DNA of 64,000 nucleotides from an uncultured archaeon (GTDB taxonomy: Archaea > Altiarchaeota > Altiarchaeia > IMC4 > SCGC-AAA252-I15), in the NCBI GenBank assembly GCA_902384455.1, contig CABMCB010000071.1:1-64000 (forward strand). Direction: 5' to 3'. Shown here piece after piece: positions 44,338 to 63,437 of the stretch. The notes beneath the pieces are model-generated. The model had not been told where the DNA came from and did no database searches. It saw only the letters and a list, made by a program, of their open reading frames with translations. Positions within the stretch are counted from its first letter, which is position 1, and each line of letters begins with the position of its first letter. A program made the position numbers and the translations under genes.

Positions 44338-45210
44338 TCAGGCGAATTGAATCGGTACGTCAATGAGATTCCATCCAGTGTAAAGTGTCTTAAAGTATTC
44401 GCTTCCGCTGCTGCTGTTGCACGCAAAAGTGCATCCGGTTGATTCTCCGGTGTCGGTCCAAGTTGAAACTAAGTCGCATCTGTTGTTGTCGCCTGTGTTG
44501 CTGTCGTCGTCTGATATGTCAAGCCAGGTGAACGACGCCCTGTTGTTGTAGCAGAACCTGTTGTCGTTTAAGGTGTTTCCGGCAGACGCGGCGTTGCTGA
44601 ACGCCATCCCATGATACATGTTGTAGTTGGCTCTGTTCCTCGAAACCGAGTTGCCTACCGACTGCCCCCCCAGCAGAGAATAAATGAATATCCCATAGTT
44701 ATTGTAGTCCGCAGTGTTGTTTATCAACTGATTGTACGACGAATCCCTCAAGTAAATCCCGTAGTTGGTGTTATTGTCGAATCTGCAGTTGATCACCGAA
44801 GAATTCTCAACCCCCAAAAAACCCACTCCATAAAAAAACCCATGAACAACGCAATTCATAATAGTCACATTGTTAGCCGCAATAACCATTATCCCGTAAT
44901 TTGGGCCACCGTTCAAAACGTTATTCTGGCAATCAAAAAACAAATTACTGAAACCAAACGGCCAGCTTATGCACGTGCCAGAATAGTTGTTAACCGGCAC
45001 AGTACCAGCGTACCTGACGCCCCTCCCGCAGGGGCCAGTATCCCCCAAGGCCATGGAACAGTCCACACAAGCGTCAGTTGCGTTTCCCCCAAGCGTAGTC
45101 AAACCGTTTCCGCATATGCAGACGCCCGACCCCGCAGAAGAATACGCTCCCACAAAGCCGGAAGCTGAAATGAGCAGAAGCAAAGCCGAAAAAATAACCC
45201 AACCTTTCAT
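44338..45210 (-). CDS. Secreted right-handed beta-helix (NosD-like) protein with C-terminal GWNL tag
   Basis: Signal peptide, repeated GIYL..S.N...NN units, ends YFKTLYTGWNLIDVPIQFA. Confidence 0.85.
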   Translation of the reverse strand: MKGWVIFSALLLLISASGFVGAYSSAGSGVCICGNGLTTLGGNATDACVDCSMALGDTGPCGRGVRYAGTVPVNNYSGTCISWPFGFSNLFFDCQNNVLNGGPNYGIMVIAANNVTIMNCVVHGFFYGVGFLGVENSSVINCRFDNNTNYGIYLRDSSYNQLINNTADYNNYGIFIYSLLGGQSVGNSVSRNRANYNMYHGMAFSNAASAGNTLNDNRFCYNNRASFTWLDISDDDSNTGDNNRCDLVSTWTDTGESTGCTFACNSSSGSEYFKTLYTGWNLIDVPIQFA

Positions 45211-45270
45211 AAACTCCCCCGAAAATACTTAAGAGTGCAAATAAAAATGCAGCAACAAACCCGTTCCCGC

Positions 45271-46263
45271 ATGAAAACATATCTTGTGCCCGCAGTAATC
45301 GCATTAACTCTTCTTTCCGCAGGATGCCAAAATGCCACACAAACGCCAGATAACAACGAAACTATCCCCTACGCAATTCTCTCGACTCAACCGTACAACA
45401 ACAGCCTATGCGGAGGAACAGGATTCCACTACGAAGAGGGCGGAGTAAAAACTGGGTTAAGGCTTATCATTAAAGACGCAGAAACCCAAGAAAACTTCAC
45501 TGGGCGGGCGAAAGTAACTTTATCGGACTCGTCCCAAGGAAGCATCTTCGCGGGAGAATCCTACTCATGCGACGAAGGGTTGCGTCCCCAAAGTGAAGTG
45601 CTGTCAGTATACGCGCAAGGTTACTCTCCTGCAGTATTTGCGTTCCCAATTACTGAAAACCAGCTTGCGGACGTGGAAGTGAGCCTGCAAAAAAGCTGCA
45701 CGCAAGGACTAACTTGCCTTAAGGACACGGAAGAAAGCATGCGTCTTGAACTCGCAGGGAACAAAACTGAAGCCCAAATAGCACGCGAAAACACAAAGCA
45801 ATACTTCGAAAACATCCTGCTGGAAAACTTCGGCATAAACCCCGCGGAAATCCAACTTACCTGCGCGGAATGCGACATGGGACGCGGAGGATACATCAAA
45901 GCAGCAGGCACAATCGGAAACGCCACATTCACCCTATACCGCAGAACCGGCTGGTGCAGAACAGGAGGAGGAGACTGCGGAAACACAATCTGCCTGACCA
46001 CCAACTCAGACGAACTAATACAAAAAGCAGAAAACAAAATCTGCCCCAACATATACTCCCTAAACCAAACCGAAGTCAACACTGAAGAAGGCGTATACAC
46101 AGTAGTACCAGTATCAGACACGACAAACCAGACCCGCGTAAACTGCCTCACAGGAGCATACACAACAACAAACGGCGACACAAAAACACTCGCACTAATC
46201 CAAGAAGCCAACAGATACAACAGCGCCGTAAAACCCCTAACAGCAAACTGCATAGAACAATGA
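45271..46263 (+). CDS. Putative Cys-rich lipoprotein
   Basis: MKTYLVPAVIALTLLSAGC lipobox; start could instead be 45247. Confidence 0.75.
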   Translation: MKTYLVPAVIALTLLSAGCQNATQTPDNNETIPYAILSTQPYNNSLCGGTGFHYEEGGVKTGLRLIIKDAETQENFTGRAKVTLSDSSQGSIFAGESYSCDEGLRPQSEVLSVYAQGYSPAVFAFPITENQLADVEVSLQKSCTQGLTCLKDTEESMRLELAGNKTEAQIARENTKQYFENILLENFGINPAEIQLTCAECDMGRGGYIKAAGTIGNATFTLYRRTGWCRTGGGDCGNTICLTTNSDELIQKAENKICPNIYSLNQTEVNTEEGVYTVVPVSDTTNQTRVNCLTGAYTTTNGDTKTLALIQEANRYNSAVKPLTANCIEQ

Positions 46264-46700
46264 TAAAAATAATAGCCGTAGGCCGACTCAAAGAACCCCA
46301 CTACCAACAGGCGGAGGCCGAATACTATAAGCGGCTTAGGAAGATTGAAGTTTTGGAAATCAAAGAATCTTCAGACAAAAACCCGGAAGTCGCCATAAAA
46401 AAGGAGGCCCGGGAAATCCAAAGTAAAATAAGCGCATCAAGCGACCAGCAAATTATTGCCCTCGAAGCAAGCGGAAAACAAGTGTCTTCCGAAGAATTCG
46501 CCAAACTAATCGCGAAAAAACAAGACACCACCTTCCTAATAGGCGGACCATACGGCCACACACAAGACACGCTCAAAAAAGCCGACTACGTCTTAAGCTT
46601 ATCTCAAATGACTTTTCCTCACCAACTGGCTAGAGTAATCCTCGCAGAGCAAATATACCGGGCACACACAATACAGGCGGGAAAAGAATACCACAAGTAA
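46260..46700 (+). CDS. rlmH: 23S rRNA (pseudouridine1915-N3)-methyltransferase
   Basis: IIAVGRLKE, EYYKRL, FLIGGPYG, LSLSQMTFPHQLARVILAEQIYRA, YHK. Confidence 0.95.
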   Translation: MIKIIAVGRLKEPHYQQAEAEYYKRLRKIEVLEIKESSDKNPEVAIKKEAREIQSKISASSDQQIIALEASGKQVSSEEFAKLIAKKQDTTFLIGGPYGHTQDTLKKADYVLSLSQMTFPHQLARVILAEQIYRAHTIQAGKEYHK

Positions 46701-46720
46701 AACCGAGCTAGTGCCTACAC

Positions 46721-61654: not shown

Positions 61655-61754
61655 ATTAGTTTAAATTTGAAACTAATTTGTTCTATTTTTAGAAAATATT
61701 TTTAAAGTTTAAAGTATTTAGTTTAAAATTGAAACCAGTTTTGGTTTGAAACTA
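61655..61754. promoter_or_regulatory. Three AGTTT-N4-TTGAAAC boxes in the gdhA/Lrp divergent promoter
   Basis: Copies at about 61658, 61720 and 61737 in a very AT-rich intergenic region. Confidence 0.6.
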
Positions 61755-61759
61755 TTGCG

Positions 61760-62362
61760 ATGACAGTCAAACTTACCGATAACGAGAAGAAAGTCCTTGA
61801 GTTCCTGCTCACGGACGGGCGGACATCCGCGACAGAAATAGGAAAGCACCTTGGAATCACTCCCCAAGCTGCAGGAAAAATCAAAGACAAACTAGAGGAG
61901 AAAGGAATCATCAAAGGATACACTGCAATAGTCGACTACTCAAAAGTCGGAATCTCAGTATTCGCAATAGGCTTCTTCAAATTCAAGTCCGGCGCATGGA
62001 CGCGGCTGGAAGACGAAGACATAACCAACCGCATGAGCGGCCCGCATCTTATACGCGTATTCCGCTTCCAAGAAGGAGAATTCACCCACATGGTAGTCTA
62101 CGGATTCCGCTCAATAATGGAACTCGACCACTACTTCCACATACTCCAAACCGAAAGAGGACACATCTCAGAACTCAAAAAACTTTACGTGCTTTCAGAA
62201 TCGAGCATACTCAAAGATTCCCCAAACGAACTCCTGGTGAAAGCAATACAAGAACTAGGCAAAGAAACACTAGCACGGCCGGAGCAGCCGCCTTCTAGCA
62301 GGTATTCTGTAAAGGGTACAACTTTAAAGGATGTTCGGGGTCCAAAGTTATCATTGCGATGA
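61760..62362 (+). CDS. Lrp/AsnC-family transcriptional regulator
   Basis: DGRTSATEIGKHLGIT, KLEEKGIIKGYTAIVDYSKVG. Confidence 0.9.
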   Translation: MTVKLTDNEKKVLEFLLTDGRTSATEIGKHLGITPQAAGKIKDKLEEKGIIKGYTAIVDYSKVGISVFAIGFFKFKSGAWTRLEDEDITNRMSGPHLIRVFRFQEGEFTHMVVYGFRSIMELDHYFHILQTERGHISELKKLYVLSESSILKDSPNELLVKAIQELGKETLARPEQPPSSRYSVKGTTLKDVRGPKLSLR

Positions 62363-62378
62363 TATGGACTGTGTTTTT

Positions 62379-63437
62379 ATGACGCGGCGGCTGGTTGTTG
62401 GCGTGGTTCTTGTCTGTTTGGTTCTTTGGGGAGTTGTTGTTTCTGAATCTATGTCCCGTGACTTGAGCGTCGATGTTGTTCAAGGTTTTCACGTGTCCAA
62501 TATTTCAAGGGTGGTTTTGGTCTCTTGGGATGGCGTGAGGGTTGCACGGCTTAATGATATGCTAGCGTCGGGTGAATTGGGGAATTTGTCTGCTATTATA
62601 GCTGAAGGGCGGATTACCAACGTCACAATCGCGGATCATTCGGTTACTACGACTGCCCCCGGTCATGCGGCGATGTTGTCTGGCTACGGAAGTAGTGCGT
62701 CTGGAGTGGTGAATAACACATGCGGGATTTCGCTACCTTTAGGGTACTCTGTTTTTGAGCGGCTTAATGCGTCTGTTCTTGGGCTGGCGACTGGTTCTGT
62801 CTGGGGTAAAAGTACTTGCTATGTGCCTGATAGCCTGTTGTCTAATGCTAGGCAGTCCATCTGGTGGTGGGGGAACTTTTCTTTGATTGGCGGTAAGTAC
62901 TCTTCGTCGCGTGCCCGCGCCGGGGGTGTGGCCAACGAGTCGCTTAAGTTTCTTTCGCAATATGGGAACGGGAGTTTCTTTTTGTTCGTTCATTTTACAG
63001 ACCCTGATTATGCGGGTCACATTTTCAGCGAGGGTAGTGCAGAGTATCGGGCCGCCCTTGTGGAGGCGGACGGTGGATTAGGGATTATTACCGAAGAATT
63101 GCGAACGTTAGGTGTGTATAATGAGACGGTGATTATTATCACGACTGATCATGGGTTTGAGGAAAATGGCGCAGGTCATACGTCGGGCGGAGTCAGTAAC
63201 CCCGACTTGTCTGTATTGTTTGTGGCAAGCAACAAAGGGTGGGCTGTCGCGCGGGAAGGCGACCGTAAGGAAACAGATGTTGCGGCGACAGTTTACGATT
63301 TATTCAACGTTAATTCTTCGGCTTTCGTTCCTGCTCTGGATGGAACCTCCCTCGCGGTTCTGCCGGGTAATTTTGCCGTAGGTCTTTCGCCAGGATGGAA
63401 CTTGCTGTCTATCCCGTTTAGCCTTAATTTTGCCTGA
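62379..63437 (+). CDS. Secreted alkaline-phosphatase-superfamily enzyme with C-terminal GWNLLSIP tag
   Basis: LVSWDG, TTAPGHAAMLSG, PDYAGH, TTDHG; ends FAVGLSPGWNLLSIPFSLNFA. Confidence 0.88.
   Translation: MTRRLVVGVVLVCLVLWGVVVSESMSRDLSVDVVQGFHVSNISRVVLVSWDGVRVARLNDMLASGELGNLSAIIAEGRITNVTIADHSVTTTAPGHAAMLSGYGSSASGVVNNTCGISLPLGYSVFERLNASVLGLATGSVWGKSTCYVPDSLLSNARQSIWWWGNFSLIGGKYSSSRARAGGVANESLKFLSQYGNGSFFLFVHFTDPDYAGHIFSEGSAEYRAALVEADGGLGIITEELRTLGVYNETVIIITTDHGFEENGAGHTSGGVSNPDLSVLFVASNKGWAVAREGDRKETDVAATVYDLFNVNSSAFVPALDGTSLAVLPGNFAVGLSPGWNLLSIPFSLNFA

What the first reader, a model, noticed from the sequence alone, without database searches (positions are those of the whole stretch)
44338..63437. 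Shared TM-less C-terminal 'GWNLISIP' tag on unrelated exported proteins: candidate undescribed surface-sorting or docking system
Seen: four signal-peptide proteins of three unrelated folds end in the same ~18-aa motif. They are beta-helix 44338-45210 (YFKTLYTGWNLIDVPIQFA), PQQ propeller 46721-48025 (FWMPMFSDWNLISIPQVI, after a poly-Thr spacer), beta-helix 59308-60195 (FQTSLYTGWNLIVLSLNV) and alkaline-phosphatase-like 62379-63437 (FAVGLSPGWNLLSIPFSLNFA). Established: archaeosortase signals (PGF-/PEF-CTERM) need a TM helix and a basic tail, which these lack. From recollection, LxxGWNL[IV]SxP usually lies inside larger surface-protein domains; here it is an isolated terminal peptide too short to fold alone. 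Inference: it is a portable tag that docks cargo on a scaffold by beta-strand complementation, or is read by an export machine, conceptually like the T9SS C-terminal domain.
Basis: partly seen in the sequence, partly recalled or inferred. Interest (0 to 1): 0.85.

Follow-up and report, generated by a model that had tools for sequence, protein, structure and literature searches.

The report
Detached beta-hairpin docking tag on archaeal secreted proteins
Many secreted proteins of this uncultivated archaeon end in the same 18-residue peptide, which is the first beta-hairpin of a widespread uncatalogued domain; relatives encode a small secreted protein that is that domain minus exactly this hairpin, so the pair looks like a natural tag-and-catcher docking system.

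Summary
Fifteen ORFs in the genome, four of them in the window, end in L[YF]xGWNL[IL]S[LIV]P[LI]xx-COOH. All 14 with a complete N-terminus have a signal-peptide-like start and no later TM helix. They cover at least 7 cargo folds. I found 56 more terminal tags in 13 related genomes of the same order.

No Pfam or NCBIfam model covers the tag. It is the first beta-hairpin of an uncurated ~85-aa domain that elsewhere sits as a tandem pair at the C-end of secreted proteins (14,771 cluster representatives).

Eight of the 14 tag-bearing genomes encode one ~175-aa protein made of a signal peptide plus this tandem domain lacking only the first hairpin. I verified none in the 47 tag-less genomes of the phylum. 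A co-fold of this "catcher" with a tag tail, both from relative G010, scored ipSAE 0.90 against 0.03 for the best control, with the tag in the missing-hairpin position.

Homologues of the cargo carry a PEF+TM anchor or an N-terminal lipobox instead of the tag.

The main gap is that no catcher was found in the window's own 92%-complete assembly. All evidence is computational.

The parts
44338..45210 (-). Secreted NosD-like beta-helix protein (290 aa) that ends in the tag.
   Evidence: ORF. Pfam Beta_helix/NosD on residues 95-226. In the AF2 model the helix core is confident, while residues 267-290 (the tag) have pLDDT below 50 and no secondary structure (alignment of only 5 rows). A 39%-identical homologue, P0123, carries PEF + TM + basic tail at the same place.
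44341..44397 (-). C-terminal hairpin tag (last 19 aa) of the beta-helix protein.
   Evidence: Tag HMM hit at residues 271-289. It matches positions 4-17 of the profile of domain 1 only.
46721..48034 (-). Secreted PQQ beta-propeller (437 aa), then a poly-Thr stalk, then the tag.
   Evidence: Of 120 listed homologues, 27 end in a TM-like tail (8 of them with P[GE]F) and 0 contain GWN.
46787..46855 (-). Poly-Thr spacer (about 23 Thr) directly before the tag.
   Evidence: Sequence. The same arrangement occurs in C11_61156 and C76_12037. Poly-Thr stalks also precede TM anchors in this genome.
46724..46777 (-). C-terminal hairpin tag of the PQQ protein (the DWN variant).
   Evidence: Tag HMM hit at residues 418-437.
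59308..60231 (-). Secreted NosD-like beta-helix protein (307 aa as listed) that ends in the tag.
59311..59364 (-). C-terminal hairpin tag.
   Evidence: Tag HMM hit at residues 289-307.
62331..63437 (+). Secreted phosphodiesterase / alkaline-phosphatase-like protein (likely start 62379) that ends in the tag.
   Evidence: The four homologous ORFs read, from tag-less genomes G001 and G011, have no tag, and three of them start with a lipobox-like signal.
63372..63434 (+). C-terminal hairpin tag (last 21 aa).
   Evidence: Tag HMM hit at residues 346-364.
28786..28839 (-). Tag-like motif (DWNSISIP) at residues 21-38 of ORF 27850-28899, directly after its signal peptide. This is the only non-C-terminal hit in the genome.
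   Evidence: E about 1e-3. The protein is a paralogue of residues 475-757 of the S-layer-like protein. Its counterparts in G021, G008 and G006 lack the motif. Whether it belongs to the system is open.

Best explanation
The ~18-aa tail is the first beta-hairpin (strands 1-2) of a widespread, uncurated ~85-aa beta domain, detached from the rest. In most organisms that domain sits as a tandem pair at the C-end of secreted proteins.

In this order of archaea, cargo genes keep only the hairpin. The public records of kin are titled Candidatus Altiarchaeota. One separate gene encodes a small secreted 'catcher': a signal peptide followed by the tandem domain without its first hairpin.

After export, the cargo's hairpin inserts into the open first domain of the catcher. 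Its WNLIS strand lies against the GYW strand, and its first strand lies against the last strand of that domain. This rebuilds non-covalently the C-terminal module that other lineages encode in every cargo gene.

Because homologous cargo elsewhere carry PEF+TM anchors, TM anchors or lipoboxes, and poly-Thr stalks precede the tag, the rebuilt module most likely holds the enzymes at the cell envelope.

Shown here: the tag, its homology to the domain's hairpin, the existence and distribution of catchers, and the predicted fit.
Inferred: binding in vivo, retention at the envelope, and the presence of a catcher in this organism.
For: 1. The tag is real and selected. There are 15 in G000. There are 56 terminal tags in 13 related genomes of 4 families. 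Codons, stop codons and 3' flanks differ between tags.

2. The tag is the hairpin of a domain.
- In other kin and in public proteins the same motif opens an ~85-aa domain, usually in tandem. Of 111 non-own hits, 108 have two or more motif hits, all more than 20 aa from the end.
- The tags match only profile positions 2-17.
- AF2 of the tandem gives pLDDT 83.7 and pTM 0.77, with seven strands per domain and the motif in strands 1-2.

3. Catchers exist. They are signal peptide + hairpin-less domain 1 + complete domain 2, about 170-180 aa, one per genome, in G007, G008, G010, G015, G017 (cut at its 3' end by the contig end), G020, G027 and G042. A stop codon lies 1-13 codons upstream of each start in the seven read. 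All eight genomes carry tags (8 of 14 tag genomes), and none was verified in the 47 others of the phylum. Seven catcher-like cluster representatives are among the best 150 hits in the 1.84-billion library, and 2 are among 80 metagenome loci.

4. The co-fold supports the fit. The mature G010 catcher was folded with a G010 tag tail. Median ipSAE was 0.90 and the best of 3 controls 0.03. That mark was reached by 58 of 80 solved complexes and 2 of 110 mismatched pairs; these counts hold only roughly because my own alignments were used. The runs agree in at least 97% of contacts, and partner pLDDT is at least 67. The interface is tag residues 18-40 with catcher residues 50-70 (the GYW strand and the last strand of domain 1).

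5. The tag sits in the anchor slot.
- P0123 has PEF+TM+basic tail at the same position.
- 27 of 120 PQQ homologues end in TM-like tails.
- Three of the four AP-like homologous ORFs read in tag-less genomes have lipobox-like starts, and none has a tag.
- 3 of 15 tags follow a poly-Thr stalk.

6. The tag is not folded onto its own protein in the AF2 model.

7. No archaeosortase was found in G000, G008, G010, G017, G021 or G027.
Against: - No catcher was found in the window's own genome with five profiles, tblastn and the genome tool. The assembly is 91.9% complete.
- None was found in G021, G025, G049, G050 or G052 either.
- The co-fold used a relative's proteins and my own shallow alignments (7 and 13 rows).
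- This pair amounts to two pieces of one domain, which tend to pass because the model knows the intact family. The pass shows fit, not binding in cells.
- Related genomes are not independent. The eight catcher genomes fall in three families.
- What holds the catcher itself at the cell is unknown. Its N-terminus looks like a cleavable signal peptide.
- Signal peptides were judged by hydropathy only.
Confidence: 0.55

Rival explanations
1. The hairpin docks onto another surface partner by edge-strand addition rather than into a hairpin-less catcher. Candidates are a complete tandem-domain protein or the S-layer/hamus-like 894-aa protein. This could hold at least in genomes such as this one, where no catcher was found.
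For: - G000 has two complete tandem-domain proteins (C96_6476, C94_71221), one of them 10 kb from a tagged gene.
- In G049 and G050 a stand-alone complete tandem-domain protein lies next to a tagged gene.
- Four tagged genes flank the S-layer-like gene in the window.
- A G025 S-layer-like paralogue ends in the tag.
Against: - Homologues of the G000-type tandem proteins occur in only 3 of 31 genomes.
- The S-layer-like protein is present in 30 of 31 genomes whether or not they have tags, at about 40% identity in both groups.
- A complete domain offers no vacant hairpin site.
Confidence: 0.15
2. The tail is a sorting or processing signal. An unknown enzyme would recognise it, cleave it and perhaps attach the cargo covalently to a lipid or the envelope, as archaeosortase or the T9SS sortase do.
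For: - Its position is the same as that of PEF-CTERM in a homologue.
- The spacing to the C-terminus is strict.
- G-W-N-L is invariant.
Against: - There is no TM helix to hold the substrate at the membrane.
- Archaeosortase is not correlated with the tag: it occurs in 4 of 10 tag genomes against 7 of 21 others.
- No known CTERM model hits the tail.
- No conserved enzyme gene lies next to tagged genes.
- This reading does not explain the hairpin-less proteins.
Confidence: 0.12
3. The hairpin acts within or between the cargo molecules themselves, as a cap on the cargo's own fold or through homo-oligomerisation by sheet formation.
For: Six of the 15 cargo are beta-helix proteins. From recollection, that fold is often trimeric in phage tailspikes.
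Against: - The same tag sits on at least 7 unrelated folds.
- In 3 of 15 it follows a poly-Thr linker of about 20-35 residues.
- AF2 leaves it disordered.
Confidence: 0.08
4. The tails are functionless remnants of tandem domains lost by truncation.
For: The homology to the domain's first hairpin is clear. Orthologues with the full domain exist: the LTD protein has a full tandem domain in G007, G008, G010, G015 and G020 but only the tag in G000 C56_2.
Against: - 71 tags in 14 genomes of 4 families end within a few residues of the same point.
- G, W, N and L are invariant despite synonymous divergence.
- No coding remainder lies downstream of the 15 G000 tags.
Confidence: 0.05

Closest known systems
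Donor-strand complementation in chaperone-usher pili and in archaeal threads, cannulae and bundling pili
   Same: An incomplete beta fold on one chain is completed by strand(s) donated by another chain. Archaeal examples are in print (search listing and starts of abstracts only).
   Different: - Those systems build homopolymeric filaments from one or a few subunits by donating a single strand.
- Here a two-strand hairpin at the C-end of many unrelated enzymes would fill one shared, monomeric acceptor.
- No sign of polymerisation was seen.
Cohesin-dockerin docking of enzymes
   Same: A portable C-terminal module on diverse secreted enzymes binds a dedicated receptor protein. Several of the 120 PQQ homologues carry a Pfam dockerin hit (PF00404).
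   Different: Dockerin and cohesin are two complete domains that touch. Here tag and receptor are two pieces of one domain. No dockerin or cohesin Pfam hit falls on the tagged proteins.
PGF-/PEF-CTERM signals and archaeosortase
   Same: The position at the C-end of secreted surface proteins is the same, often after a Thr-rich stalk. A homologue, P0123, has PEF+TM+basic tail at exactly the site of the tag.
   Different: The tag has no TM helix and no basic tail. No archaeosortase was found in G000 or in five other tag genomes.
Engineered split-domain tags (SpyTag/SpyCatcher, split-GFP strand 11); recalled, not searched here
   Same: A short peptide cut from a beta domain is used as a tag and refolds with the remainder.
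   Different: Those are man-made, and SpyTag bonds covalently. This would be a natural, probably non-covalent case that serves a whole secretome.
T9SS C-terminal domain
   Same: A C-terminal beta element without a TM helix on otherwise unrelated secreted cargo.
   Different: - The T9SS CTD is a complete domain of about 80-100 aa read by an outer-membrane machine in Bacteroidota.
- The tag is 18-20 aa.
- Two bacterial proteins with the full tandem domain carry a separate Por_Secre_tail as well (P0082, P0118).

Membership tests
Archaeosortase-dependent C-terminal signals (PGF-/PEF-CTERM) | A motif followed by a TM helix and a basic tail. | tested here: not met
   The best 19-mer hydropathy after residue 70 is at most 1.69 in all 15 proteins. 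The proteins end 7-10 aa after WN.
Archaeosortase-dependent C-terminal signals (PGF-/PEF-CTERM) | An archaeosortase/exosortase gene in the genome. | tested here: not met
   PF09721 was not found in G000 (91.9% complete). Across 31 genomes it occurs in 4 of 10 tag genomes and 7 of 21 others.
Archaeosortase-dependent C-terminal signals (PGF-/PEF-CTERM) | A match to a curated CTERM model. | tested here: not met
   No NCBIfam hit on the tails at E up to 1 for the 4 window proteins. No Pfam hit for any of the 15. NCBIfam was not run on the other 11.
T9SS C-terminal domain (Por_Secre_tail) | A complete C-terminal beta-sandwich of about 80-100 aa that matches PF18962/TIGR04183. | tested here: not met
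   The tag is 18-21 aa, and no such hit was found.
Uncurated 'GWNLIS...GYW' tandem domain family (my label) | The first hairpin, L.L..GWNL[IV]S.P. | tested here: met
   The tags match positions 2-17 of a profile of 107 copies of domain 1.
Uncurated 'GWNLIS...GYW' tandem domain family (my label) | The rest of the domain (strands 3-7, including the G.GYW strand). | tested here: not met
   It is absent from the 15 tagged proteins and from 450 nt downstream in all frames, read through the stop. The tags are therefore fragments of the domain, not members with a whole domain.
Donor-strand / fold complementation pairs | An acceptor protein with an incomplete fold that lacks the donated element. | tested here: inconclusive
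   Met in 8 related tag genomes. Not found in G000.
Donor-strand / fold complementation pairs | The donor element fits the vacant site. | tested here: met
   Co-fold of the G010 pair: ipSAE 0.90 against a best control of 0.03. That mark was reached by 58 of 80 solved complexes and 2 of 110 mismatched pairs. At least 97% of contacts are shared between runs, and partner pLDDT is at least 67. The tag's WNLIS lies against the catcher's GYWVKV. This is a prediction only, for a relative's proteins.
Donor-strand / fold complementation pairs | Physical binding. | not testable with these tools
   Needs biochemistry.
Cohesin-dockerin | A dockerin domain (PF00404) on the cargo. | tested here: not met
   No hit on the 15 tagged proteins.

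The most novel reading that the evidence does not exclude
This is a natural split-domain tag-and-catcher system. An ancestral C-terminal tandem domain underwent fission. Dozens of secreted enzymes and adhesin-like proteins per lineage now keep only its first beta-hairpin, 5 to about 19 per genome. A single shared catcher gene supplies the rest in trans and so tethers a whole secretome to the envelope of Altiarchaeota-like cells. Some of these cells have a double membrane (passages read in PMC4460559).
Probability: 0.45. Interest if true: 0.88.

Novelty: new variant of a known kind. Interest (0 to 1): 0.8.

Why it matters
If the tag and catcher bind, this is the first natural counterpart of engineered peptide-tag/catcher pairs that I am aware of. 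It would also be a new way for archaea without archaeosortase signals to display enzymes on their surface.

It would show that a domain can be split so that many genes share one copy of its bulk. It would allow the surface proteome of an uncultivated, widespread subsurface lineage to be predicted from sequence.

Independently of the mechanism, the work exposes a very large domain family that neither Pfam nor NCBIfam models: 14,771 cluster representatives at E up to 1e-3, in both archaea and bacteria. No similar solved fold was found.

A thermally and chemically robust non-covalent tag/catcher pair could also be useful as a tool.

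Tried and rejected
- **Literature on the motif:** 0 papers hold 'gwnlis' or 'gwnlvs'. The 47 papers with shorter strings include none on this motif among the 20 listed.
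- **Related loci for the PQQ protein in genome contigs:** none confirmed.
- **Known fold for the tandem domain:** no Foldseek PDB match at E up to 1e-3. The wide VIA search gave a best Z of 4.0, which is within noise. The ESM Atlas neighbours are unnamed clusters.
- **Hidden continuation of the domain** after the stop or in another frame: none for the 15 tags. One marginal extension in C94_81770 adds no real score.
- **Hairpin-less remainder in G000:** profiles from kin, from public proteins, from the catchers and from G000's own domains, a G.GYW motif scan, tblastn and the genome tool found only the two complete tandem proteins. The one weak small hit, C68_22794, is an out-of-frame ORF inside another gene.
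- **G000-type tandem proteins as the general partner:** homologues in only 3 of 31 genomes.
- **Archaeosortase link:** none.
- **Conserved neighbours of tagged genes in 18 loci of kin:** none recurrent. C76_15080 is a metabolic HPS/RraA-type gene.
- **N-terminal motif in orthologues of ORF 27850-28899:** absent.
- **Synteny around the catcher cluster in G000:** the homologous genes lie at contig ends (start of C3, start of C56) or are dispersed (C11, C9), and no catcher lies beside them.
- **G043:C72:** a domain gene interrupted by TGA inside GWN|L. It looks like a frameshifted gene or an assembly error, not a tag/catcher pair.

Full report
**1. What is in the window**

- Pfam assigns NosD/beta-helix to 44338-45210 and 59308-60231.
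- It assigns a PQQ propeller to 46721-48034.
- It assigns a type I phosphodiesterase/sulfatase-like fold to 62331-63437.

In none of them does a Pfam or NCBIfam match reach the last ~20 residues. The rest of the window is ordinary archaeal chromosome, with MCM, Orc1/Cdc6, RadA, Lon, SAM synthetase and the like. GC content is even, 0.47-0.54.

**2. The tag across the genome**

The window is G000:C71:1-64000. G000 is a 2.41-Mb assembly of 103 contigs, 91.9% complete.
- A six-frame scan of 10,273 ORFs finds 15 ORFs that end in L[YF]xGWNL[IL]S[LIV]P[LI]xx-COOH.
- Among ORFs with a stop, 14 of 30 GWN[LIVMF] occurrences lie 11-14 residues from the stop, against 0.83 expected (P 1.5e-14).
- A 20-position HMM of the tag retrieves the 15 at the C-end only. 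There is one more hit, at residues 21-38 of window ORF 27850-28899, right after its signal peptide. The next hit has E 0.72.
- The cargo are six NosD-like beta-helix proteins, two PQQ propellers, one phosphodiesterase-like enzyme, one subtilase, two CARDB proteins, one lamin-tail-domain protein, one 2,055-aa NHL-repeat protein and one protein without a Pfam hit.
- All 14 complete N-termini carry a hydrophobic signal-like segment, and none has a later TM-like stretch (hydropathy only).
- Three tags follow a poly-Thr run.
- The tag-coding DNA differs in synonymous codons, uses TAA (8), TAG (5) and TGA (2), and is followed by unrelated sequence.

The peptide itself is therefore conserved by selection. 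It was not spread as a recent DNA cassette.

**3. The tag in relatives**

A profile of the 15 tails (A1) hits 16 of 31 related genomes. I read the sequence around the hits to see how far each lies from the stop.
-, 27 loci of kin: 18 terminal (at most 4 aa after the match), 8 internal, 1 unclear.
-, 40 further loci: 31 terminal (at most 5 aa after the match), 1 ten residues from the end, 8 internal.
- a G025 S-layer-like paralogue also ends in the tag.
-, eight loci from a search of the whole phylum (61 genomes): six more terminal tags.

In all there are 56 terminal tags in 13 related genomes: G007, G008, G010, G015, G017, G020, G021, G025, G027, G042, G049, G050 and G052. They belong to families f1, f3, f4 and f5 of the window's order. 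The two genomes of another order that had hits, G031 and G032, show only the internal form.

**4. What the motif is**

In the internal form the motif opens a domain of about 85 residues. Its outline is L.L..GWNLIS.P..P...s...vL..i.G.Y..v..y....W..Y......L..i.pG.GYW[IV]......l.v.G. It usually occurs as a tandem pair at the C-end, with GWNLIS.P in the first copy and GWNL[IV]GYP in the second.

*Distribution.*
- A word-indexed search of 5.8 billion proteins with the tails listed 120 proteins. Nine are G000's own. Of the other 111, 108 have two or more motif hits, all more than 20 residues from the end.
- These proteins carry many kinds of cargo.
- Source names include Thermoplasmata, Methanosarcinales, Aenigm- and Woesearchaeota, Kiritimatiellaeota and Ignavibacteria.
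- A profile search of the 1.84-billion representative library counts 14,771 clusters at E up to 1e-3 and 482 at E up to 1e-30.
- Genome records with the full domain span many bacterial and archaeal groups.

*No curated model or known fold.*
- Neither Pfam nor NCBIfam matches the domain.
- The ESM Atlas neighbours are unnamed clusters.
- AF2 on an 8-row alignment gives a confident model: mean pLDDT 83.7, above 90 in the domains, pTM 0.77. Each domain has seven strands, and the motif forms strands 1 and 2.
- No solved structure resembles it convincingly. Foldseek gives no hit at E up to 1e-3, and the wide VIA search gives a best Z of 4.0.

*The tags against the domain profile.*
- Against a profile of 107 first-domain copies, the 15 G000 tags match positions 2-17 and nothing more.
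- No remainder is encoded after the stop in any frame.

The tag is therefore the detached first hairpin of this domain.

**5. The missing piece**

A search of the 61 genomes of the phylum with a tandem-domain alignment (A4) returned the expected large proteins. It also returned a set of small open frames of about 180 aa whose match begins only at profile position ~29, just after the hairpin.

Read out, they are complete genes. Each has a stop codon 1-13 codons upstream of the start, an ordinary signal peptide, and then directly the sequence that normally follows the hairpin. The rest of domain 1 and a complete domain 2 follow.
- They occur once per genome in G007, G008, G010, G015, G020, G027 and G042.
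- G017 has one too, cut at its 3' end by the contig end.
- All eight genomes carry tags, so 8 of the 14 tag genomes have a catcher.
- Among the 47 other genomes of the phylum none was verified. One candidate, G023:C46, is cut by a contig end and cannot be judged.
- In G010 the small protein is a close paralogue of the tandem domain of a larger neighbouring protein, with the hairpin segment replaced by the signal peptide.
- In six of the eight genomes it lies just downstream of that ~500-576-aa protein: directly after it in G008 and G020, and after one intervening gene in G007, G010, G015 and G017. The larger protein has a signal/TM start, a Tyr/Gly-rich stretch, a lamin-tail domain and a full tandem domain.
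- Seven such 'catchers' (my label) are among the best 150 representatives in the public library.
- Two are among 80 metagenome loci.

The full domain is ubiquitous. The hairpin-less form is rare and, as far as I saw, confined to this lineage.

**6. Do the pieces fit**

I co-folded the mature G010 catcher (157 aa, alignment of 7 catchers) with the last 40 residues of a G010 tagged protein (alignment of 13 G010 tails).
- The median score of three runs was ipSAE 0.90.
- The best of three controls scored 0.03.
- That mark was reached by 58 of 80 solved complexes and 2 of 110 mismatched pairs in the tool's calibration. The tool says this holds only roughly here, because my own alignments were used.
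- The runs share at least 97% of their contacts, and the partner's pLDDT is at least 67.
- Tag residues 18-40 touch catcher residues 50-70. W31-S35 of the tag lie against Y52-V56, the GYWVKV strand. V25-L27 lie against T62-L63, the last strand of domain 1. This is the place of the missing hairpin.

Two cautions apply.
- The pair is in effect two parts of one domain. The model may rebuild it because it knows the intact family, although I found no similar solved structure.
- The proteins come from a relative, not from the window's genome.

**7. What the tag is for**

The tag sits where homologues carry anchors.
- The only close public homologue of the window's 290-aa beta-helix protein is P0123 (39% identity), which its source names Candidatus Altiarchaeota archaeon. 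It aligns up to the Cys-rich cap and then continues with PEF, a hydrophobic helix and a basic tail, where the window protein has the tag.
- Of 120 listed homologues of the PQQ propeller, 27 end in a TM-like tail, 8 of them with P[GE]F, and none has GWN. The precomputed Pfam columns list DUF11 (PF01345) or dockerin (PF00404) for several others.
- The phosphodiesterase-like protein has homologues only in the tag-less genomes G001 and G011. Four homologous ORFs were read; none has a tag, and three start with lipobox-like signals.
- Poly-Thr stalks precede the tag in 3 of 15 cases, as they precede TM anchors in this genome.
- AF2 of the 290-aa protein folds the beta-helix with confidence and leaves residues 267-290 below pLDDT 50 and without structure (alignment of only 5 rows).
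- Archaeosortase (PF09721) was not found in G000, G008, G010, G017, G021 or G027 and shows no link with the tag.

I infer that the tag is an attachment device. The rebuilt tandem module would hold cargo at the envelope. What the module itself binds is unknown.

**8. The gap for this genome**

No catcher was found in G000 by any of the following:
- profiles from kin, from public proteins, from the catchers and from G000's own domains;
- a G.GYW motif scan;
- tblastn with seven catchers;
- the genome search tool.

G000 does have two large proteins with complete, divergent tandem domains, C96_6476 and C94_71221. Their homologues occur only in G000, G017 and weakly G014.

The G000 counterparts of the genes that flank the catcher in kin lie at contig ends.
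- C3_58_732 matches the N-part of the large neighbour and ends 57 nt from the contig start.
- Its own neighbour C3_905_2515 matches the gene next to the G027 catcher.
- C56_2_658, cut at the contig start, matches the lamin-tail part and ends in a lone tag where kin have the full tandem domain.

So the region where a catcher would be expected is broken in this assembly. I take an unassembled catcher to be more likely than not, but this is inference. G021, G025, G049, G050 and G052 also lack a verified catcher. G049 and G050 instead have a stand-alone complete tandem protein next to a tagged gene.

**9. Context**
- The records in genome contigs that carry the catcher genes are titled Candidatus Altiarchaeota archaeon (three) and Methanobacteriota archaeon (one).
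- The phylum holds only 61 species genomes in the collection.
- For Ca. Altiarchaeum hamiconexum a double membrane is reported. [quoted passage not shown]
- The window's 894-aa S-layer-like protein hits S_layer_C and S_layer_MJ and is present in 30 of 31 kin. It may be of that kind; I did not compare the two directly.

**10. Comparison with what is known**
- Fold completion by a donated strand is known from chaperone-usher pili (recalled).
- It is also known from archaeal threads, cannulae and bundling pili (listing and starts of abstracts only). Those build filaments.
- Docking of many enzymes on one receptor is known from cohesin-dockerin, which uses two whole domains.
- Peptide tags cut out of beta domains are known as engineered tools (recalled).

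A natural system in which many unrelated secreted proteins keep only a hairpin of a domain, and one gene supplies the rest, did not turn up. My searches were for the motif strings and for strand complementation with archaeal S-layer terms. They do not cover subscription journals or supplements.

**11. Verdict**
- The tag belongs to no known sorting-signal family.
- Its origin as the first hairpin of a large uncurated domain family is shown.
- The tag-and-catcher mechanism is well supported for the lineage by anatomy, distribution and a controlled co-fold. It is unproven experimentally, and it is incomplete for the window's own genome.

Noticed in passing
window 27850-28899 (-): A 349-aa paralogue of the middle part of the S-layer-like protein. 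It carries a tag-like hairpin motif (DWNSISIP) at residues 21-38, directly after its signal peptide. It is the only non-C-terminal hit in the genome. Counterparts in G021, G008 and G006 have lipobox-like or poly-Thr N-termini instead.
   Followed up: partly
window 55570-58254 (-): An 894-aa (~97 kDa) S-layer-like protein with S_layer_C and S_layer_MJ hits, present in 30 of 31 related genomes. Given the lineage, it may correspond to the S-layer-like hamus subunit described for Ca. Altiarchaeum. I made no direct comparison.
   Followed up: partly
window 45235-46263 (+): A 342-aa Cys-rich protein with a lipobox-like start (LSAGC), lying between two tagged genes. It has no Pfam or NCBIfam hit.
   Followed up: no
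window 7132-7833 (-): A small secreted protein with long poly-Thr/Ser stalks, a C-terminal TM helix and a basic tail. This is the conventional anchor type in the same genome. About 50 ORFs with hydrophobic C-terminal tails were listed genome-wide, and I saw no PGF motif among them.
   Followed up: partly
G000 contigs C96:6476-9928 and C94:71221-75324 (loci L053, L054): Two large proteins with complete but divergent tandem domains (hairpins GWNTVSSP/GWFWIGYP and GWKYISIP/GWYWIGYP). C96_6476 also has repeated Cys-rich modules separated by long poly-Thr runs.
   Followed up: partly
L028 (G014:C60) and L031 (G006:C86): Proteins of 280-345 aa with hydrophobic N-terminal segment(s) (two in L028) followed by a complete tandem domain. 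These genomes have no terminal tags among the hits examined.
   Followed up: no
L112, L113 (G050:C13, G049:C46): A stand-alone secreted protein (signal peptide, acidic linker, complete tandem domain; about 300 aa) lies immediately upstream of a gene that ends in a lone tag.
   Followed up: partly
L128 (G043:C72:1-1600): A tandem-domain gene interrupted by TGA inside the GWN|L motif, apparently by a compensated frameshift. It lies just downstream of a protein that ends in a TTTP repeat plus a PEF-like motif, a TM helix and a basic tail.
   Followed up: partly
L116/L118 (G042:C71): A second copy of a tag-coding segment stands alone as a 23-codon open frame about 1.1 kb downstream of the tagged NHL-repeat gene.
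   Followed up: no
L288 (G017:C2) and L119-L121: Between the large lamin-tail/tandem-domain gene and the catcher lies a gene of about 470-490 aa. In G017 it ends in a poly-Thr stalk, a TM helix and a Lys-rich tail. Its G000 homologue, C11_64351, sits 2 kb from tagged gene C11_61156.
   Followed up: partly
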